A stretch of DNA of 24,000 bases from Methanocaldococcus sp. 16A (lineage in GTDB: Archaea; AGJL01; Methanococci; Methanococcales; Methanocaldococcaceae), in the NCBI GenBank assembly GCA_049860595.1, contig CP187551.1; one strand, written 5' to 3'. The notes beneath the pieces were generated by a model. The model was given only the letters and a program-made list of their open reading frames with translations. It was not told the origin of the DNA and ran no database searches. The position numbers were made by a program, and so were the translations under genes. Shown here in pieces: positions 3,447-23,147 of this stretch. Within the stretch, counting starts at the first letter, position 1, and every line of letters begins with the position of its first letter.

Positions 3447-3658
3447 ATCACGACATTCAAAATATTCAAGACATCTAAATTTGAGTACTGACAGTGTGAT
3501 TTAACGATATCGAACATAAAACCAAAAAATAGAAATAGATGAAACTTAAATTAAAGTTTATTACGAATAAAAAGAATTGAAGTGGGCATTTAATGGGTAA
3601 AGCTATGAGAGAAATCCCTGAGGAGGATTATAAGTTGATTGTAGGTGAATAAGAAATA

Positions 3659-6505
3659 TTAATTACCCTCATCAGTATAATAATTAGATTTTATGAAGTT
3701 TTGAATGAATTGTTTTAAATCTTTTAGTTTTTCATTTACTAAGTCTTCTGAAGCATTTATAGCGATTATATAAGCAATTTCTGTCTTATTATCTATATTT
3801 TTTGGTATATCTACTTCTTTACTAAATTCTTTATTTAGAAAATCAGTCCAATCATAATCAGGACATGCATAAATATAATATTCGTCTCGCAATTTTTCAG
3901 CAATTTTATCATAAACAGGTTTTATACATTTCTCCACAATTTCATCTCTATTTTTAATTGTGTTTGGTAGTTTAAGACTTTCTTTAATTTTATTAATGTA
4001 TTCATCATTTAACCAATCTGGTGAATAGAGTTCCTTAAGATTTTTAAGTATTATTGGCATACTTATTTTGTTCTTATCTTTACTACTATTTTCGTTCGTA
4101 TAAAAATTAAATGCCGTGTCTCCATCACAAACAATACAATATGGAATGTTTAAAGAATCCATTAGTTTCATATATTTTTTAAATCCATTCTTGCCGCCGA
4201 CATTTATAATTTCTATGTTATATTTTTCGAGTGGATTGTTGTATTTTTCATCTTCAAATTTAAATTTTCTTATTAATATTGGAAGAGTTATCAACTCTGA
4301 AATTCCTTCTACCAATATTACACCATTTGCAAAAAGTGAGGGAATTAATCTATCATTTTCTTCAAACATTTTTTTCATCATGTTTATATTTGTGCTTGTG
4401 GTGATGTATGAAATATCATCATTTTTTTTAATTTTAGGAATTTTTGAATATATTTCTTCTAAAATCTCATTAAGATTAATTTTGTAGATTCCATTACAAA
4501 AATTATCAATATATTCCTGACATTTTTTTATTAAGTCATCATATTTTCCATCTTTATTAGATACCTTCTTTAAATAACCTATCTTACCATTTAATTCATT
4601 GAATTTTATAAACTGTTTTTCTAAAAATTCAAGTTCATTTAAATCTAATTCGTCTAAATTAATGTTTATTTTTCTACCTAAACGACTTTCAAAGTTTGAT
4701 AAATCCTTTTCTAATTTTTGCTTAATATCCTCTTTAATAAATTCAAAGAATACTCTATATATATTTACTAACTTTGTAGCTCCATTTTCTTTATCTTTAT
4801 AAAATCTAAAAGTATGTTTTAATAATTCAGAATCTACAAAATAGGGTGAGTGGGTTATTATTATAATTTGGTTACCCCCATTTTCATTTAAATTTAACTT
4901 TTTAAAATCTTCCAATAATCTTTTCTGATAAATTGGATGTAAATGTAGTGCTGGCTCATCTAATAAAATAACTTTATTTTTATTTCCAACGACTACAGCC
5001 AAAATATTTAAAACTTCAAAAATACCTGAACCTACTCTATCAATAGGTAGTTGCTTAGAATCTTTTGATTGAATATCATATGTAATAAAAATTTCTGGAT
5101 AGCCATTATGATTAACTACATCGAAATCTATGTTTTCAGTAGCAAAAATTTCTTGAAAATATTTTCTAATATCTTTATATTTGTTTCTAATATCTAATTC
5201 ATGGGAATTTTTTAAATAAAACAAATATTTTGCCAAATCTTTTCCATTCCCATAATAGGCATTAAATCCATACCCATAAGTAGGTATTTTTCGTATAGCC
5301 TCTGTTACTTTACTTAACTTATCTACAGATACCTTAATATCTGATGTTGGAGGAATCCACAACTTTAATCCTTTTATTAATGATTTAACATCTTCAGAAA
5401 GGTCTTTAGGATATCCCCTAACTTCTTCAAATTTTATAATTGCTTTATCAAAGAGTTTTAGTATAAAATAATGAAATAATAACGAATTAGGAAATTTAAA
5501 TTCTATATTTAGATATTCAAAGATTCTTTTTATTTTCTCATATATCTCACTGTCTAACGGATTTTCATTTACATAATTTGTAATTTTCTCATAATTTATG
5601 TAACTATTCTGTCCTAAGTAAAATAAGCCCAATGCTAATAATAATGCATATAGTAATCTAAAATGCTTTATTGTTTGATATTTTTCTTCTAAAAATCTGT
5701 ATCCATTATCACTATCAATAAATTCACGCAAATAATCACATAAAATATCTTTATTTTGACCATTATTGAAATCGGAAATAAACAATATATTGTTGGTTTT
5801 ATCCACAATATAATACAAATTATAACTCATTACTACGTTTAAAAACTTATTTAAACTCTTAAAATATTTTCCATCATTATTTTCAAATTCTTTATACTTC
5901 TGAGGATTAGGTTTCTTAGATAATATCTCATTAAATGTTTTTTTATTAACTAAAAATTCATACCATTTCATATCATCCTCAATATCAGATAGTGATAGTC
6001 CCCACTTAGATAACTCATTTTTTAATTCTTTAGATATTTCAATTAACTTATTAATAGAAACTTTGTAATATGGATGTATTATACCTGTAGGATTTCCGTG
6101 ATATTCCCAAATTATCTGCCCTTTTGAGAATACATCTATTAATTCATCAAAAACATTAAAATTTAATTTATTGCAGATTTCTAAGAATGTTTCTATGGAA
6201 TTAGAACCTGTAGATTTAAAAAATCCTTCAAAATAATCTTTTAGTAAATTTTTCTCCAAATCATCAAATTCAATATCTACAACAATTTTAGCAAATCTAT
6301 TACTATCATTATGTAAATAATTTGGGACATCTTCGGCTTTTATTCTATTATTTATCACATCCTTTAAAAACTCAAGAACTCTAAATAGATTTGATTTTCC
6401 AGCATTATTTGGACCTACTATAACAGCAATATTGCCCTCATTAAATTCAATCTTAAATTCATCATAAGAAAATAAGTTATTAACTTCAATAGCCTTAATC
6501 TTCAT
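3659..6505 (-). CDS. OLD-family nuclease: ABC/SMC-like ATPase fused to a C-terminal Toprim domain, unusually long at 948 aa
   Basis: Walker A GPNNAGKS (nt 6392-6415), signature-like RVGSGIFE, Walker B/D-loop VILLDEPALHLHP (around nt 4934-4972), H-motif IIIITHSPYF. Toprim motifs VILVEGISE (nt 4295-4318), INVGGKNGF and CIVCDGD (around nt 4118-4126). GGTGA Shine-Dalgarno 6 nt upstream of ATG 6505. Confidence 0.85.
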   Translation of the reverse strand: MKIKAIEVNNLFSYDEFKIEFNEGNIAVIVGPNNAGKSNLFRVLEFLKDVINNRIKAEDVPNYLHNDSNRFAKIVVDIEFDDLEKNLLKDYFEGFFKSTGSNSIETFLEICNKLNFNVFDELIDVFSKGQIIWEYHGNPTGIIHPYYKVSINKLIEISKELKNELSKWGLSLSDIEDDMKWYEFLVNKKTFNEILSKKPNPQKYKEFENNDGKYFKSLNKFLNVVMSYNLYYIVDKTNNILFISDFNNGQNKDILCDYLREFIDSDNGYRFLEEKYQTIKHFRLLYALLLALGLFYLGQNSYINYEKITNYVNENPLDSEIYEKIKRIFEYLNIEFKFPNSLLFHYFILKLFDKAIIKFEEVRGYPKDLSEDVKSLIKGLKLWIPPTSDIKVSVDKLSKVTEAIRKIPTYGYGFNAYYGNGKDLAKYLFYLKNSHELDIRNKYKDIRKYFQEIFATENIDFDVVNHNGYPEIFITYDIQSKDSKQLPIDRVGSGIFEVLNILAVVVGNKNKVILLDEPALHLHPIYQKRLLEDFKKLNLNENGGNQIIIITHSPYFVDSELLKHTFRFYKDKENGATKLVNIYRVFFEFIKEDIKQKLEKDLSNFESRLGRKININLDELDLNELEFLEKQFIKFNELNGKIGYLKKVSNKDGKYDDLIKKCQEYIDNFCNGIYKINLNEILEEIYSKIPKIKKNDDISYITTSTNINMMKKMFEENDRLIPSLFANGVILVEGISELITLPILIRKFKFEDEKYNNPLEKYNIEIINVGGKNGFKKYMKLMDSLNIPYCIVCDGDTAFNFYTNENSSKDKNKISMPIILKNLKELYSPDWLNDEYINKIKESLKLPNTIKNRDEIVEKCIKPVYDKIAEKLRDEYYIYACPDYDWTDFLNKEFSKEVDIPKNIDNKTEIAYIIAINASEDLVNEKLKDLKQFIQNFIKSNYYTDEGN

Positions 6506-6702
6506 AAAAATTCACCATATTTTTTAGGTTATTGCATTTTCCTTAATATTACAATTTTGAACTGTTGATTAATTATATTGCTTTTTAAAAATATTTAAAA
6601 ATAATCCTACACATAACTAAAAAATAAAACAATTATATATTATCTAAACTACCACATTTTCATAATAAGTTATTAACTCTTTAATAAGATGAAGTGATTC
6701 AA

Positions 6703-7488
6703 ATGTTATTAGAAAAGAGCAAAATAGAAATTATAGAGCAATTTATTCATATCTTAGAAATCTTAGACATGTATGCAAAAGAAGGAAGTGATGAGAAGGC
6801 AATTATAAGATTGATGTTAGATTACCTTGAAAAAGGACATGTTTTAGATGAAGATATTATTCCAATAGCAAGTAAAATTTCGGAAATAGCTAAAAAAGTT
6901 GGTAGTTTTGACATGAAAAGAGAGATAAACCTTTTACTATTTGGAGAGAAAGTAAGATTAACAAAATCCCAAAAAAACAAAATAAAAAAGATTATTGAAA
7001 TTTTAGAGTATTTAAAAGGTTATATAGAGAAAAAGCCATACAAATCTTATGAAGACAGGCATATTTTAAATCTAATTGGTTTAAAAATTTTAAGGCTGGA
7101 TGAAGGAATTGTTTTAGATTATAATTCAGAAGTTAGGAGCTTAACCAATATGGCTTTAAGAGTGGGAAGTTATGAATTAAAAAATGAAATTGAGTTATTA
7201 TTAACTGGAAGAAGAAGGAGGAAATTAACAGAAGAATTTATACAAAAGAGAATATCAATTATAGAGATTTTAGAAATGGTTAAAGACTTTATAGACAAAA
7301 AAGAATTTAAATCATCTTTTGACTATGAAGCACTCTTCTTAATAAATTTGAAGATTCATAGAATTGAAGAAGGAATTTTAAAAAATTTTGATGAAGAAGT
7401 AGAATCAATTTTAAGCATAGCAAGAAAAGTAGGAAATCACAAATTGAGGGAGAAAATTGTTTTATTAAAAGAGAGTATAAAGAACTAA
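6703..7488 (+). CDS. Hypothetical protein made of three tandem ~85-aa repeats
   Basis: Internal triplication. The repeat cores are IIEQFIHILEILD...KVGSFDMKREINLLL, then IIEILEYLKGYIE...RVGSYELKNEIELLL, then IIEILEMVKDFID...KVGNHKLREKIVLLK. The ORF opens at GTG 6694. ATG 6703 follows GAAGTGA. Divergent from the OLD-family gene. Confidence 0.7.
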   Translation: MLLEKSKIEIIEQFIHILEILDMYAKEGSDEKAIIRLMLDYLEKGHVLDEDIIPIASKISEIAKKVGSFDMKREINLLLFGEKVRLTKSQKNKIKKIIEILEYLKGYIEKKPYKSYEDRHILNLIGLKILRLDEGIVLDYNSEVRSLTNMALRVGSYELKNEIELLLTGRRRRKLTEEFIQKRISIIEILEMVKDFIDKKEFKSSFDYEALFLINLKIHRIEEGILKNFDEEVESILSIARKVGNHKLREKIVLLKESIKN

Positions 7489-13187: not shown

Positions 13188-13425
13188 GCTTTCCCTCCTA
13201 GTATAATATTAATTAAGTAATCTAAAATAAACATCAACTTTGGATGTTTTTTAGTTATTCATCTCATTATAATAAATTATTATTTTTATTCTTTTTTATT
13301 TTTATGTGTAATCTCATTTTGTTATTGGTTGTGTTAAGTATTGACATAACCATAAATTATATATATGATGAGGTATATATGAGATTACGTTATAAAATAA
13401 ATTAGAGAGTGTGTGGTGATACAGA

Positions 13426-13713
13426 ATGAAGAAGGTAGTTATATCAGATGAAGCTAAAGAGTTCATCTTAGATAAGTTAAAGAAAGCTAACCAAGATACA
13501 GTAGTTATACACTTTGAAGGGTTTGGGTGAGCTGGACCTAAATTTGGAATTTCAATAGCTCAACCAAACGAAAATGATAAACTAATCTATGACAACGAAT
13601 TTAAAATCTACATCGACCCTATTGCCGACCAATGGCTTGATGAAGTTAATATCTCATTAAGAAGGTCAATATTTGGAAAGTCTCTTAAGATAAAAGGTAG
13701 TAGTGAGTGCTAA
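13426..13713 (+). CDS. HesB/IscA-like selenoprotein (95 aa) with in-frame TGA = selenocysteine at 13528-13530; not in the ORF track
   Basis: ATG 13426 is preceded by GGTGAT. Translation gives MKKVVISDEAKEFILDKLKKANQDTVVIHFEGFG-U-AGPKFGISIAQPNENDKLIYDNEFKIYIDPIADQWLDEVNISLRRSIFGKSLKIKGSSEC. The UGA sits where A-type Fe-S carriers have the conserved Cys (G-C-x-G). The reading frame is clean on both sides of the TGA. A SECIS element lies immediately 3'. Confidence 0.85.
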
Positions 13714-13742
13714 CCGGGAACCCAATTTTGGGACCGGTTAGC
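13709..13742 (+). promoter_or_regulatory. Archaeal SECIS element (3'-UTR type), overlapping the stop codon
   Basis: GCUAACCGG-GAA-CCC-AAUUUU-GGG-A-CCGGUUAGC. This gives a 9-bp GC-containing helix I, the conserved asymmetric GAA/A internal loop, a 3-bp G:C helix II and a 6-nt apical loop. A T-tract (13743-13746) follows. Confidence 0.85.
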
Positions 13743-14179
13743 TTTTATTATTGGATGAATTTATAATTTATACTATTTTTTTAGAGTTGATTAAATTTAT
13801 AATTTTACAGTATCTACGAATATGTATTAGATATGCATTATACATAACTACATTTAAATAATCAAATTTATCTAATAACTTACTCACTTCGACGATGAAG
13901 AATTTTAGAGACATACTTTCTTTTTTATTTCGTATTTTAATCCATAAGTTATGAATAACTCATCTAAGCATAAAAAGGAACAACCTAACTTTTGGAGAGG
14001 TTAATTTTGTTTTTATTAATGCATCTTGAAAATATTGCTAATAATCTATTTACATAGTAGTAGGCGATTTCAAAACTCCCTATGATGCGTATTTTGAAAA
14101 TATTTAGTTATAATAATGGAATACTATTATGAGTAAGAATGGAGAAATAATACAACATAATTACTAATTAGGTGGTAAA

Positions 14180-15187
14180 ATGGAGGTTTTATGCATAGAT
14201 ATTGGAAAAGGGACACAAGATATCCTATATATAGACACCAATAAGAATATTGAGAACTCCATAAAGTTAATTCTTCCATCTCCAACAGTAATTTTGGCAG
14301 AAAAAATAAAGAAAATGACTGAGGACTTAAGGATAGATGGAGTTGTAATGGGGGGAGGTCCAGTAAATAAAGCAATATATGAACACATAAAAAAAGGGTT
14401 TAAGGTTGAGATATCAGAAAGTGCAGCAAGAACAATAAGGGATGATTTAGAGGAGGTAAAAAAGAGGGGAATAATAGTTAAAGAAAGTATAGAGAACCCA
14501 AACATCATTTTTAGAGATTTAGATTTTGACATGCTAAAAAATATATTTGCATCAATAGGAAAGGAGTTTAATCCTGACTTTGTATGTGTGGCATGCCAAG
14601 ATCACGGTTTTGTTAAGGGGCAGAGTGATAGAATCACAAGGTTCAAATACTTTGAAAATAAGTTAAAAGAGACAAACGACCCATATAAATTTTACTTTGA
14701 AGAAAAGACAAATTATTTTTCAAGGTTTGATGCAATCTTAGAAACATTAAAAGAAAACAAATACAAAGGATTTGTAATGGATAGTAAGATCGCCTCTATA
14801 TGCGGAATTTTAAACTATGCAAAGGAAAATGGCATTAATGAGTTTATTGGTTTGGACATAGGTAATGGTCATACCTTAGGAGTTTCTATAAAAGATGGGG
14901 AAATTGTTGGATTATTTGAGCATCATACGAGACTTCTAACTCCTAAAAAATTAAAAAACATTGTCGATAAATTGGCAGATGGGTCATTAACAAACGAAGA
15001 AATATTTAATGATAATGGTCATGGAGCTGTGGTTTTAGACAGTGTAAATCCAGAAGAAATTTTAATTGCTGGACCAAATAGAGAAATGTTTAAGGATTAT
15101 GGAAAATACGCATATCCTGGTGGAGATGTGATGATTACTGGGTGTGTTGGGTTATATGACGTGTTAAAATCTATAAAGGGATGCTGA
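14180..15187 (+). CDS. ASKHA-superfamily (actin/sugar-kinase-like ATPase fold) protein, DUF1786-like
   Basis: Two phosphate-binding-type motifs: CIDIGKGTQDILY near the N-terminus and GLDIGNGHTLG mid-protein. AGGTGG Shine-Dalgarno before ATG 14180. The family assignment is from memory of DUF1786 N-termini. Confidence 0.6.
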   Translation: MEVLCIDIGKGTQDILYIDTNKNIENSIKLILPSPTVILAEKIKKMTEDLRIDGVVMGGGPVNKAIYEHIKKGFKVEISESAARTIRDDLEEVKKRGIIVKESIENPNIIFRDLDFDMLKNIFASIGKEFNPDFVCVACQDHGFVKGQSDRITRFKYFENKLKETNDPYKFYFEEKTNYFSRFDAILETLKENKYKGFVMDSKIASICGILNYAKENGINEFIGLDIGNGHTLGVSIKDGEIVGLFEHHTRLLTPKKLKNIVDKLADGSLTNEEIFNDNGHGAVVLDSVNPEEILIAGPNREMFKDYGKYAYPGGDVMITGCVGLYDVLKSIKGC

Positions 15188-15406
15188 GCTAACCATCTCT
15201 TTCCTTTTGATGAAACTATTATAAGGTGGAGTCTTCCCGATGTAGTCAAATATAGAAGATGAAGATTATAGAAATATAAAATAGCGACCGTTATAGTTGA
15301 GTTATAGACTAAGTTTATCTAAATCTTACAAAGATAAAAATGTTTTATTGTAATTATTATCTTCCCATTTTCTTTATCGTATTTTATGCATCACATTCAA
15401 TTATAT

Positions 15407-17780: not shown

Positions 17781-18089
17781 TTATTCTTTATAAATAAGAT
17801 TTCCTTCTTCAGTTTCCACTATTTTTGGATGTAACTTTAAAAAAGATTTTATTGCTGGTGGGATGTTCCATTCAACACCATGAACAAGCTTATCCCAATT
17901 TTCAACAAACCTCTTTTTCCCTAAAACTTCATCCAATTTTCCTCTAAGTTTTTCAATAACAATTTTGTCCTTGGTAAAGCTTTTTATTCTATAAGCCCCT
18001 CTTTTAGTTTTTGAATAAAAAATTTTGTCTTCATCATAGTAATTTTTTGCTATTTCCAACAACTCTCTCCAGACCTCTTTAGGTCTCAT
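17781..18089 (-). CDS. Hypothetical protein (102 aa)
   Basis: Clean ORF with coding-like composition, divergent from truD across a 45-bp TATA-containing spacer. No family recognised. Confidence 0.6.
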   Translation of the reverse strand: MRPKEVWRELLEIAKNYYDEDKIFYSKTKRGAYRIKSFTKDKIVIEKLRGKLDEVLGKKRFVENWDKLVHGVEWNIPPAIKSFLKLHPKIVETEEGNLIYKE

Positions 18090-22452: not shown

Positions 22453-23147
22453 GAGACTGTCAAGATAAAGATTAAATAAATATGTGTAAATAAAGGAAGA
22501 TATGAAACTTACGATAGAAATGTTAAAGGAAGGGATTAAGAAGATAGTTAAAAGGAATAAGAAGTCGATAGAGATTAAAATTTTAGCTGGAATTTTGTAT
22601 TATTTAGGATTATCGTTAAGAAAGGTTAGTTTGTTTCTTTCTCAATTTGAAAGTATAAGTCATGAATCGGTTAGAACATATTATCACAAGATTAAGGAGA
22701 TTTTAAACGAGCCTGAAAGAAAGACAAGAAACCTAATAGCAATCGATGAAACTAAACTAAAGATTGGAAATGAAACTATTTATGTATGGTCTGCTATCGA
22801 TGTGGGTTCTAAAGAATGTTTAGGTATCTATGTCTCTAAAACAAGATGCTACCTCGATACAATCTTATTCGTAAAAAATATATTAAAATTTTGCTCGAAT
22901 AAACCAAAGATTTTAGTCGATGGTGGCAAATGGTATCCGTGGGCACTGCAAAGATTAGGACTAAAATTCGAAAGAGTTCGATTCGGTTTAAGAAATTGTG
23001 TCGAAAGTTTCTTTTCCCTACTCAAACGAAGAACTAAATCTTTCTATAATCGATTCCCAAGTAATACTAAATTCTCAACCGTCATTAGCTGGCTCGTATC
23101 TTTCTCCTCTTTCTATAACTTCTTTCTCTCCTTATCTTGACATCGTC
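22453..23147 (+). mobile_element. IS6-family insertion sequence (~695 bp) with terminal inverted repeats and a 9-bp target-site duplication
   Basis: IRL is GAGACTGTCAAGATAAAG (22453-22470). The reverse complement of IRR (23130-23147) is GACGATGTCAAGATAAGG. They match at 14 of 18 positions, with a perfect TGTCAAGATAA core. An identical TTTATTTTA lies immediately outside both ends (22444-22452 and 23148-23156). One transposase ORF ends inside IRR. Confidence 0.8.
22502..23140 (+). CDS. tnp: IS6-family DDE transposase
   Basis: An N-terminal HTH-like region is followed by the DDE triad contexts [19 protein letters not shown] and [13 protein letters not shown]. 212 aa, matching the size and layout of IS6/IS26-type transposases. 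Confidence 0.85.

What the first reader, a model, noticed from the sequence alone, without database searches (positions are those of the whole stretch)
13426..13742. Hidden selenoprotein: HesB/IscA-like gene with in-frame UGA and a canonical archaeal SECIS overlapping its stop codon
The ORF track shows nothing here because TGA at 13528-13530 splits the frame. Reading through gives a 95-aa A-type Fe-S carrier-like protein, with Sec in the G-U-A-G position where homologues carry the cluster-ligating Cys. The sequence from 2 nt before the TAA stop (13709-13742) folds exactly as the archaeal SECIS consensus: helix I, a GAA/A internal loop, a 3-bp GC helix II and a small loop. From memory, a HesB-like selenoprotein was predicted in Methanococcales by computational selenoproteome work (Kryukov and Gladyshev), so the family is probably known. 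It is routinely missed by gene callers, and the SECIS overlapping the stop codon is a tidy detail. It also marks the host as a Sec-decoding methanogen.
Basis: partly seen in the sequence, partly recalled or inferred. Interest (0 to 1): 0.7.

Follow-up and report, generated by a model that had tools for sequence, protein, structure and literature searches.

The report
Known HesB-like selenoprotein gene with SECIS

Summary
An ORF at 13426-13713 (+) carries one in-frame TGA (13528-13530, codon 35). A 34-nt hairpin (13709-13742) starts 2 nt before the TAA stop. It has a 9-bp basal stem, a GAA/A internal loop, a CCC/GGG clamp and an A/U loop.

A SECIS descriptor hits only here in the window. Fewer than 0.004 hits per 24 kb are expected by chance.

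The read-through protein scores 131.5 bits against NCBIfam TIGR01911 "HesB_rel_seleno" (cutoff 66.35). Its modelled fold matches IscA and SufA (TM about 0.75).

All 12 distinct orthologues I recovered keep TGA at the same column, and 10 of them keep a SECIS within -5 to +10 nt of the stop. Eight of the 11 SECIS base pairs show compensatory changes, while GAA and the bulged A never vary.

Substitutions downstream of TGA fall mainly on third codon positions (84/65/335). TGA ends three other genes in the window. Distant homologues carry only TGA or Cys at this column.

The family was predicted in 2004, shown by 75Se labelling and mutagenesis in M. maripaludis, and is listed in current reviews with motif UxGP. 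The finding is correct but already known.

Side observations: two orthologues keep TGA but lack a recognisable SECIS, in one case next to a transposase fragment.

The parts
13330..13368 (+). Conserved upstream block containing an A/T-rich TATA-like box (AAATTATATATAT, 13354-13366). This is the putative archaeal promoter of the gene.
   Evidence: The block is conserved across 6 orthologous loci, while the spacer between it and the RBS varies from about 25 to 110 nt. Promoter function is inferred, not shown.
13415..13420 (+). Shine-Dalgarno-like GGTGAT, 5 nt upstream of the ATG.
   Evidence: It is invariant in the window/L001/L002/L003 alignment and present in L011 and L020 but not L013.
13426..13713 (+). 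HesB-like selenoprotein CDS: 95 residues including Sec35, plus the TAA stop.
   Evidence: Translation is. TIGR01911 scores 131.5 bits against a cutoff of 66.35, and PF01521 scores 26.4 against 26.3. The AF2 model has pLDDT 91.6 and matches IscA and SufA.
13528..13530 (+). In-frame UGA, the selenocysteine codon (residue 35, motif U-A-G-P).
   Evidence: TGA sits at the same column in 12 of 12 distinct orthologues. It is the only in-frame TGA in the 22 window ORFs, and TGA is a true stop for 3 of them. Homologues carry only TGA-derived W or Cys at this column.
13708..13710 (+). Codon for the invariant C-terminal Cys95.
   Evidence: C95 is invariant in 15 close homologues and present in 55 of 62 distant ones.
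13709..13742 (+). Euryarchaeal SECIS element. Basal stem 13709-13717 pairs with 13734-13742 (9 bp). GAA is at 13718-13720. The apical clamp is CCC 13721-13723 with GGG 13730-13732. The loop is AAUUUU, 13724-13729, and the bulged A is at 13733. The 5' arm contains the last 2 nt of the Cys codon and the whole TAA stop (13711-13713).
   Evidence: A SECIS sits at the equivalent position in 10 of 12 distinct orthologues. On the SECIS alignment, 100% of cells pair, 8 of 11 pairs show compensatory change, and GAA and A are invariant. These features match the definitions in PMC13188914 and PMC11881835.
13743..13752 (+). T-rich tract (TTTTATTATT) directly after the SECIS. It is a likely archaeal oligo-T transcription termination signal.
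   Evidence: The sequence is. T-runs follow the SECIS directly in seven of the nine other SECIS-bearing loci, for example L001, L002, L008 and L014, but not in L013 or L017. Function is inferred only.

Best explanation
The region is one gene for a 95-residue HesB-like selenoprotein (NCBIfam TIGR01911) of Methanocaldococcus sp. 16A.

Transcription probably starts downstream of a conserved TATA-like block and ends at the T-run just after the hairpin. Translation starts at 13426. At UGA 13528-30 the ribosome inserts selenocysteine instead of terminating. The mRNA carries a euryarchaeal SECIS about 180 nt downstream. This is a kink-turn-like GAA/A internal loop held between a 9-bp basal stem and a CCC/GGG clamp. 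It recruits the archaeal Sec-insertion machinery: SelB carrying Sec-tRNA(Sec), plus a still unidentified SECIS-binding factor.

Translation then continues to TAA at 13711-13, which lies inside the 5' arm of the SECIS. The terminating ribosome must therefore melt the base of the element.

The product has the IscA/SufA fold. Sec35 takes the place of the first cluster- or metal-ligating Cys of A-type carriers. An invariant C-terminal Cys95 sits on a flexible tail in place of the usual CxC motif. Its most likely role is handling of Fe-S clusters, metal or chalcogen through a Sec/Cys pair.

What is shown here: the gene structure, the conservation of UGA, SECIS structure and covariation, selection on the downstream reading frame, and family and fold membership. 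What is inferred: actual Sec insertion in this organism (by homology to the M. maripaludis protein, confirmed by 75Se labelling), the promoter and terminator roles, and the biochemical function (unknown even in M. maripaludis).
For: - **Sequence and fold.**
- **SECIS uniqueness.** One hit in the window against fewer than 0.004 expected.
- **Family and fold.** TIGR01911 scores 131.5 bits against a cutoff of 66.35. Foldseek gives IscA 1r94 and 1x0g and SufA 2d2a as top hits, TM 0.71-0.75.
- **Conservation.** 12 of 12 distinct orthologues have TGA at the same column. 10 of 12 have a SECIS starting -5 to +10 nt from the stop.
- **Covariation.** 100% of cells pair, 8 of 11 pairs show compensatory change, 0 of 500 shuffles reach the observed score, and slid controls collapse.
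- **Selection.** Substitutions downstream of TGA fall 84/65/335 on codon positions 1/2/3.
- **Genetic code.** TGA is a real stop for 3 of 22 window ORFs, and Trp is always TGG.
- **Sec/Cys column.** It holds only a TGA-derived residue or Cys, and Sec35 aligns with the GGGCSG Cys of PDB 2apn.
- **Literature.** HesB-like is listed as an archaeal selenoprotein, identified by 75Se labelling and mutagenesis in M. maripaludis (PMC11097638; PMC2933860 Table 1, refs 29-30). It is catalogued as TIGR01911 with motif UxGP (PMC13188914 Table 1). SECIS requirements were defined by mutagenesis (PMC11881835).
Against: - There is no direct evidence of Sec incorporation in this organism.
- No Sec machinery gene or tRNA(Sec) lies in the 24 kb, so host competence rests on the genus (Methanocaldococcus) and the literature.
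- Rfam has no matching model, so no independent covariance-model hit was possible.
- The 100% pairing is partly by construction, because the SECIS copies were picked with a pairing descriptor.
- Two orthologues (L003, L020/L021) keep TGA without a recognisable SECIS. Either a SECIS can lie elsewhere, or such genes can persist for some time after losing it.
Confidence: 0.95

Rival explanations
1. The gene is a pseudogene. An IscA-like gene was inactivated by a nonsense mutation (TGY Cys to TGA), and the hairpin is unrelated.
For: Gene callers split it at the TGA: the ORF list shows only a 34-aa piece, and the databases hold 34-aa N-terminal and 46-53-aa C-terminal fragments. IS remnants lie nearby.
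Against: TGA sits at the identical column in 12 distinct orthologues across sequences only 48-87% identical. The downstream part is under strong purifying selection, with substitutions falling 84/65/335 on codon positions 1/2/3. A co-conserved, covarying SECIS is present. The family's M. maripaludis member is a 75Se-labelled protein (PMC11097638).
Confidence: 0.02
2. UGA is read as Trp, or another standard amino acid, because the organism uses an altered genetic code. This is what the database translations with W at this position would suggest.
For: All 15 close full-length database homologues (P0001-P0015), and 52 of the 62 distant ones, carry W at the column.
Against: At the DNA level the codon is TGA in all 10 of P0001-P0014 for which a locus was recovered (8 by look-up, 2 by identity to a genome locus), and those loci do not translate to the query under table 11. 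In the window TGA terminates 3 well-supported genes, Trp is encoded by TGG 41 times, and this is the only in-frame TGA. The W is therefore an artefact of gene calling with code 4 or 25.
Confidence: 0.01
3. The hairpin is only a transcription terminator or mRNA-stabilising stem-loop at the 3' end of a short gene. It is not a recoding signal, and its resemblance to a SECIS is coincidental.
For: It sits at the 3' end of the gene and is followed directly by a T-run, here and in most of the SECIS-bearing orthologues. It may well also contribute to 3'-end formation.
Against: A plain terminator would not need an invariant GAA...A internal loop and a C/G clamp held constant while 7 of 8 basal-stem pairs covary. 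[quoted passage not shown] The expected chance occurrence is below 0.004 per 24 kb. The co-occurrence with a conserved in-frame UGA would also go unexplained.
Confidence: 0.02

Closest known systems
HesB-like selenoprotein of Methanococcales (NCBIfam TIGR01911 HesB_rel_seleno). Examples are M. maripaludis MMJJ_08070 and the M. jannaschii HesB-like gene.
   Same: It has the same family HMM, at 131.5 bits, about twice the cutoff. It has the same UxGP Sec motif, similar length, a C-terminal Cys, and a 3' SECIS directly after the ORF. In Methanocaldococcus (L001, L003, L011, L012), and in one further locus (L014), the gene sits next to psmA in the same way.
   Different: Only details differ. Residue 36 is Ala (U-A-G-P), where all 15 close homologues have Gly. 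A DUF1786 gene plus an IS remnant are inserted downstream relative to L001 and L011. This is an orthologue in another strain, not a new kind.
Euryarchaeal (methanogen) SECIS element, as defined for fruA and sps of M. maripaludis and M. jannaschii.
   Same: It has a basal stem with a G-C clamp, a GAA/A kink-turn-like internal loop, three C-G pairs above it, and a 4-6 nt A/U loop. It lies about 180 nt downstream of the UGA, inside the reported 80-1300 nt range (PMC2933860).
   Different: Its 5' arm overlaps the last Cys codon and the stop codon, so it is not strictly within the untranslated region. This overlap is shared by the Methanocaldococcus-type orthologues (offset -4 or -5) and by L008 (offset -1). 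Other Methanococcales start 1-10 nt after the stop.
A-type Fe-S cluster carriers IscA, SufA and ErpA (Pfam PF01521; PDB 1r94, 1x0g, 2d2a, 2apn).
   Same: The fold is the same (TM 0.66-0.75). Sec35 aligns with the first conserved cluster-ligating Cys in the G-G-C-S-G loop.
   Different: Sequence identity is only 13-19%. Sec replaces Cys. The C-terminal C-x-C ligand pair is replaced by one terminal Cys. TIGR00049 and the IscA, SufA and ErpA equivalog models all score far below their cutoffs. The M. maripaludis mutant has no reported phenotype, so a role as a carrier is not established.
Bacterial HesB-like and IscA_HesB_Se selenoproteins (NF038090), for example in Deltaproteobacteria and Clostridia (PMC1794560).
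   Same: They share the superfamily and place Sec at the same Cys column.
   Different: Bacterial members use a SelB-binding SECIS inside the coding region directly after the UGA. The window protein scores only 24 bits against NF038090 (cutoff 85).

Membership tests
HesB-like selenoprotein (TIGR01911 HesB_rel_seleno) | Whole-protein score above the curated NCBIfam cutoff. | tested here: met
   It scores 131.5 bits against a cutoff of 66.35, E = 1.2e-38, covering residues 1-89 of 95. Cys was substituted for Sec in the query.
HesB-like selenoprotein (TIGR01911 HesB_rel_seleno) | Single Sec encoded by an in-frame UGA in a UxGP motif (PMC13188914 Table 1). | tested here: met
   The motif is G-F-G-U-A-G-P, with TGA at 13528-30. 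TGA is at the same column in 12 of 12 distinct orthologues.
HesB-like selenoprotein (TIGR01911 HesB_rel_seleno) | The Sec column is occupied by Cys in non-seleno homologues (a Sec/Cys pair). | tested here: met
   Among 62 distant full-length homologues the column holds only W (52) or C (10). The W is inferred to be a code-4/25 translation of TGA; the codon was read as TGA at the DNA level only for close homologues. Sec35 also aligns to the Cys of GGGCSG in PDB 2apn.
HesB-like selenoprotein (TIGR01911 HesB_rel_seleno) | Selenium is actually incorporated into the polypeptide. | not testable with these tools
   This is known only for the M. maripaludis member, from 75Se labelling and mutagenesis (cited in PMC11097638 and PMC2933860).
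Euryarchaeal SECIS element | On the same mRNA as the UGA, in the 3' (rarely 5') untranslated region, tens to hundreds of nt from the UGA. | tested here: met
   It starts 178 nt after the UGA. The first 5 nt overlap the last codon and the stop, and the remainder is untranslated.
Euryarchaeal SECIS element | Basal stem of at least 3 bp, in which structure rather than sequence matters (PMC11881835). | tested here: met
   The stem is 9 bp. Seven of its 8 aligned pairs show compensatory changes across 10 orthologues, and 100% of cells pair.
Euryarchaeal SECIS element | Internal loop 5'-GAA ... A-3' (kink-turn-like) with the two A residues invariant. | tested here: met
   GAA is at 13718-20 and A at 13733. 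Both are invariant in all 10 SECIS copies.
Euryarchaeal SECIS element | Apical clamp of two to three C-G/G-C pairs and a terminal loop of 4-6 nt, mostly A/U. | tested here: met
   The clamp is CCC/GGG and the loop is AAUUUU, or AUUU if the A-U pair closes. In two orthologues the third clamp pair is A-U or U-A.
Euryarchaeal SECIS element | Drives UGA read-through in vivo. | not testable with these tools
   This needs a reporter assay. No Rfam model exists for this element.
A-type Fe-S carrier (IscA/SufA/ErpA, Pfam PF01521) | Pfam Fe-S_biosyn domain at or above the gathering score. | tested here: met
   It scores 26.4 bits against 26.3, only just above.
A-type Fe-S carrier (IscA/SufA/ErpA, Pfam PF01521) | IscA fold. 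| tested here: met
   The AF2 model of orthologue P0004 (82% identical) has pLDDT 91.6. Foldseek top hits are 1r94, 1x0g, 2d2a, 2apn and 1nwb, with probability 1.00 and TM 0.66-0.75.
A-type Fe-S carrier (IscA/SufA/ErpA, Pfam PF01521) | Three conserved ligand cysteines, C-X(n)-C-X-C. The motif is recalled from established knowledge of IscA (Cys35, Cys99 and Cys101 in E. coli). | tested here: not met
   The first Cys is replaced by Sec. The C-terminus is ...GSSEC, with a single terminal Cys and no CxC.
A-type Fe-S carrier (IscA/SufA/ErpA, Pfam PF01521) | Score above the cutoff of the TIGR00049, IscA, SufA or ErpA models. | tested here: not met
   TIGR00049 scores 29.5 against 58.8, ErpA 25.4 against 117, SufA 21.1 against 136 and IscA 16.4 against 151.
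Sec-decoding host | Genome encodes tRNA(Sec), SelB, PSTK, SepSecS and selenophosphate synthetase. | not testable with these tools
   None of these lies in the 24-kb window: no tRNA was found and no such families. The window matches Methanocaldococcus sp. 16A exactly, a genus known from the literature to decode Sec.

The most novel reading that the evidence does not exclude
In every SECIS-bearing orthologue the SECIS sits against or over the stop codon, at -5 to +10 nt. This placement might be functional rather than just compact. One possibility is that each terminating ribosome melts the basal stem. That would transiently disable recoding for the ribosomes behind it and couple Sec-insertion efficiency to ribosome traffic. 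Another is that the element doubles as the 3'-end-forming structure of the transcript. A related question concerns the two orthologues that retain UGA but have no recognisable SECIS (sp. 28A, next to a transposase fragment, and L020/21). They could be natural cases of SECIS-independent or remotely directed recoding, rather than recently dead genes.
Probability: 0.08. Interest if true: 0.4.

Novelty: already known. Interest (0 to 1): 0.15.

Why it matters
It matters little beyond correct annotation. The gene is easily lost or split by ORF finders: public databases hold it as 34-aa stubs, as C-terminal fragments, or with a spurious Trp from code-4 calling. Recognising it recovers one member of the small archaeal selenoproteome, and it flags the host as a selenium user.

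The biochemical role of the HesB-like selenoprotein is still unknown. That open question is not made more tractable by this additional orthologue.

The set of 10 covarying SECIS copies assembled here agrees with, and slightly extends, the mutagenesis-based definition of the methanogen SECIS.

Tried and rejected
- **Rfam.** Neither the gathering threshold nor E up to 10 gave a SECIS hit. No Rfam family matched the element, so this is uninformative rather than negative.
- **PDB profile search.** A search with the 14-sequence alignment, which has W at the Sec column, found nothing. The single-sequence search with Cys substituted gave only 2apn at E = 0.079. Fold comparison settled the point instead.
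- **hhalign against E. coli IscA.** It gave only a weak 38-column match, consistent in register but not used as evidence.
- **Genome-collection scan.** Run with the single protein, it returned only 4 loci, because it needs exact 8-residue peptides. More diverse orthologues were obtained through profile search and contig look-ups.
- **SECIS searches in L003 and L020/L021.** Both strict and relaxed descriptors found nothing convincing. In L020 I saw by eye that GCUAAAA...UUUUAGC could still pair around a 52-nt insert, but the core is not GAA/A, so I do not call it a SECIS.
- **Exact look-up of the window protein.** The 34-aa stub and the W-substituted full length are not in the collection.
- **Rival readings.** Pseudogene, alternative genetic code, and terminator-only were considered and rejected (see rivals).

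Full report
**1. The observation**

- An ATG at 13426 follows a GGTGAT Shine-Dalgarno-like hexamer (13415-13420).
- The frame runs 34 codons to TGA at 13528-13530. It then continues without another stop for 60 more codons to a terminal Cys codon (13708-10) and TAA (13711-13).
- The other two frames downstream of the TGA are full of stops.
- The read-through product is 95 residues: MKKVVISDEAKEFILDKLKKANQDTVVIHFEGFG-U-AGPKFG...GSSEC.

From 13709, 2 nt before the stop codon, to 13742 the RNA folds as follows.
- A 9-bp basal stem, GCUAACCGG with CCGGUUAGC.
- An asymmetric internal loop, GAA opposite a single A.
- Three C-G pairs.
- An AAUUUU loop.

The minimum free energy of the 51-nt context is -25 kcal/mol, against -10.7 +/- 2.7 for shuffles (z = -5.3, 0 of 200 shuffles as stable).

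I wrote a descriptor scan requiring GAA, three G/C pairs, a 3-10 nt loop, a bulged A and a basal stem of at least 4 bp. It finds this site and nothing else on either strand of the 24 kb. It gave 1 hit in 300 dinucleotide-preserving shuffles, and none with a stem of 5 bp or more. The window is 29% G+C, which makes a G/C-rich structured element like this stand out.

**2. What the protein is**

- With Cys substituted for Sec, the protein scores 131.5 bits against NCBIfam TIGR01911 "HesB_rel_seleno / HesB-like protein" (curated cutoff 66.35).
- It just reaches the Pfam Fe-S_biosyn gathering score, 26.4 against 26.3.
- The canonical A-type carrier models (TIGR00049, IscA, SufA, ErpA) all fall far below their cutoffs.
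- An AlphaFold2 model of an 82%-identical orthologue is confident (pLDDT 91.6, pTM 0.81), apart from a floppy C-terminal tail.
- Its best PDB matches are E. coli IscA (1r94, 1s98), [2Fe-2S]-IscA (1x0g), SufA (2d2a), HI1723 (2apn) and AQ_1857 (1nwb), with probability 1.00 and TM 0.66-0.75.
- In the phmmer alignment with 2apn, Sec35 aligns with the cysteine of the G-G-G-C-S-G loop. From established knowledge of IscA, this is the first of the three cluster-ligating cysteines.
- The usual C-terminal C-x-C is absent. Instead there is a single, invariant, terminal Cys.

The protein therefore has the IscA fold and a Sec at the ligand position, but it is not a canonical A-type carrier.

**3. Is the UGA really decoded?**

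Four lines of evidence say yes.

(a) *Conservation.* I recovered 21 loci through a genome scan, profile searches and contig look-ups. They represent 12 distinct orthologues (48-87% protein identity to the window), and every one has TGA at the same column. Full-length database entries show W there, and the looked-up loci do not translate to the query under table 11. The W is therefore an artefact of gene calling with a TGA=Trp code. The databases also hold 34-aa N-terminal stubs and C-terminal fragments of the family. This is the usual signature of callers breaking at UGA.

(b) *Selection.* Among six close orthologues, differences downstream of the TGA fall 84/65/335 on codon positions 1/2/3. 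There are 242 synonymous against 151 non-synonymous codon differences. This constraint is at least as strong as in the part upstream of the TGA.

(c) *Genetic code.* TGA terminates three well-supported genes in the window (DUF2666, DUF1786 and the IS6 transposase). Trp is TGG 41 times, and this is the only in-frame TGA in 22 ORFs.

(d) *Sec/Cys column.* In 62 more distant full-length homologues from the exhaustive profile search, the column contains only W (52, inferred to be TGA-derived; the codon was read at the DNA level only in close homologues) or Cys (10), and nothing else. The ratio is biased, because the query profile carried W.

**4. Is the hairpin a SECIS?**

Current descriptions define the euryarchaeal SECIS as two stems separated by a purine-only GAA_A bulge. 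Three consecutive S-S pairs sit above the bulge, and the apical loop is variable (PMC13188914).

Mutagenesis in M. maripaludis refines this definition (PMC11881835).
- The basal stem matters as structure, with a minimum of about 3 bp.
- The apical G/C clamp is required.
- The two A residues of GAA are indispensable.
- The loop is 4-6 mostly A/U bases of little importance.

The window element meets each of these features.

Ten of the 12 distinct orthologues have such an element, starting between -5 and +10 nt relative to the end of the stop codon. On an alignment of the ten:
- GAA and the bulged A are invariant.
- 100% of cells pair.
- 8 of 11 pairs show changes on both sides.
- The covariation score is 0.76 against 0.26 in shuffles (0 of 500 reach it).
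- Sliding the 3' partners by one to three columns collapses pairing to 10-61%.

One caveat applies. The copies were picked with a pairing descriptor, so the pairing percentage is partly by construction. The independent evidence is that a motif expected fewer than 0.004 times per 24 kb recurs at the same place in ten divergent loci, with different basal-stem sequences. Examples are CUAACCGG, CUAACUGG, AAGUCCAA, AAACCUAA and UUAUCUAA.

The UGA-to-SECIS distance of about 180 nt lies within the 80-1300 nt reported for Archaea (PMC2933860). Rfam has no model that matches.

**5. Other parts of the gene**

- A block at 13330-13368, containing AAATTATATATAT, is conserved in six orthologous loci, while the spacer to the RBS varies greatly in length. 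I take it to be the promoter (inferred).
- A T-run follows the SECIS directly here and in most of the other SECIS-bearing loci. This is consistent with archaeal oligo-T termination, so the SECIS is probably the last structured element of the mRNA (inferred).
- The stop codon lies in the 5' arm of the basal stem. The overlap is shared by the Methanocaldococcus-type orthologues (offset -4 or -5) and by L008 (-1). Other Methanococcales start 1-10 nt after the stop.
- Sec insertion happens 60 codons earlier, so the SECIS is intact when it is needed. Only a ribosome near termination would unwind it.

**6. Source organism and context**

The window's PsmA and DUF1786 proteins match GenBank proteins XRP96526.1 and XRP96528.1 of Methanocaldococcus sp. 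16A exactly. Exactly one accession number lies between them. This suggests that the deposited annotation already has a CDS here (inference).

The neighbours are housekeeping genes in an arrangement I recall from M. jannaschii: psmA, SBDS, L37Ae, a Brix-type rRNA maturation factor, ADP-forming acetyl-CoA synthetase, TruD, aMBF1, hemL and Mn-pyrophosphatase. None is a Sec-machinery gene, and there is no tRNA. The host's Sec competence therefore cannot be checked within the window.

**7. Comparison with what is known**

- The HesB-like selenoprotein was predicted by Kryukov and Gladyshev in 2004 (reference 30 of PMC2933860).
- The M. jannaschii gene is noted as missed by Glimmer (PMC5054222).
- The M. 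maripaludis protein was identified by 75Se labelling and mutagenesis (Stock et al. 2010, as cited in PMC11097638 and in PMC2933860 Table 1).
- It is listed in a 2026 review as TIGR01911 with motif UxGP (PMC13188914).
- Its function remains unclear. A disruption mutant is viable and fixes nitrogen normally (PMC11097638).

The window gene is an orthologue in another Methanocaldococcus strain. It is neither a new family nor a new mechanism. Its only idiosyncrasy is Ala instead of Gly after the Sec.

**8. Rival readings**

- *Pseudogene.* Excluded by the conservation of TGA, the selection on the downstream frame and the covarying SECIS.
- *Reassigned code.* Excluded by TGA stops and TGG Trp codons in the same window.
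- *Terminator only.* This cannot explain the invariant GAA/A and G/C clamp amid a covarying stem, nor the linked UGA. A secondary role in 3'-end formation remains possible.

**9. Verdict**

Novelty is "already known" and interest is low (0.15).

The most interesting leftovers concern other genomes. Two orthologues retain the UGA but have no recognisable SECIS. In Methanocaldococcus sp. 28A, homology stops inside the SECIS at GCUAAC. It is replaced by a 21-bp perfect hairpin and a DDE transposase fragment. A remnant of the same transposase lies just downstream of the intact SECIS in the window.

Noticed in passing
L003:3285-3946 (Methanocaldococcus sp. 28A, CP187540): The hesB-like orthologue keeps its TGA, but the SECIS is gone. 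Homology to the window stops after GCTAAC, inside the 5' arm. What follows is a perfect 21-bp hairpin (L003 3295-3356, z = -7.7), then a DDE_Tnp_1 transposase fragment (ORF 3458-3946), then different downstream genes. The protein also has D56N at a column invariant in the other 14 homologues. The gene was probably recently inactivated by an IS-mediated rearrangement, or else uses an unrecognised SECIS.
   Followed up: partly
L020:1015-1100 and L021 (metagenomic Methanocaldococcus-like, protein P0006): The TGA is retained, but only 25 nt separate the stop from a convergent flavoprotein gene. No SECIS is found by strict or relaxed descriptors anywhere in the locus. GCUAAAA...UUUUAGC around a 52-nt insert could still pair at the usual position, but the core is not GAA/A.
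   Followed up: partly
window 13759-14030 (-): An IS remnant lies directly downstream of the SECIS. It is 77% identical in DNA to L003 3858-4135, and tblastn matches the last 28 residues of the L003 DDE transposase at 13945-14028 (E = 1e-8). Together with the DUF1786 gene, it forms an insertion of about 1.65 kb (13753-15398) relative to L001, L011 and L012, where the acetyl-CoA synthetase gene follows hesB-like directly.
   Followed up: partly
window 14180-15187 (+): A DUF1786 protein (PF08735, 286 bits). Its 90%-identity cluster contains Methanotorris formicicus and M. igneus proteins besides Methanocaldococcus sp. 16A and 10A. This hints at recent horizontal transfer into this locus.
   Followed up: no
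window 3659-6505 (-): A 948-aa protein with an N-terminal ABC/AAA_21/AAA_15 ATPase and an OLD-like TOPRIM domain. It is an OLD-family nuclease, a class often linked to anti-phage defence, sitting among housekeeping genes.
   Followed up: no
window 22502-23140 (+): An IS6-family transposase (NF033587, 133 bits). It is one of three genes in the window that end in TGA.
   Followed up: no
window 13330-13368 (+): The promoter-region block GTGTTAAGTATTGACATAACCATAAATTATATATATGA is strongly conserved across six hesB-like loci, while the 5' leader varies from about 25 to 110 nt. Conservation extends well upstream of the TATA-like box, so it could include a regulator binding site.
   Followed up: no
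public protein databases (P0001-P0015, P0018, P0026, P0040, P0047, P0062): All 15 close full-length entries of this family (and most distant ones) carry a spurious Trp at the Sec position, from gene calling with a TGA=Trp code. Others are 34-aa N-terminal stubs or C-terminal fragments. The family is systematically mis-represented in metagenome-derived protein sets.
   Followed up: yes
window 6694-7488 (+) and 17781-18089 (-): ORFs of 264 aa and 102 aa with no NCBIfam or Pfam match.
   Followed up: no
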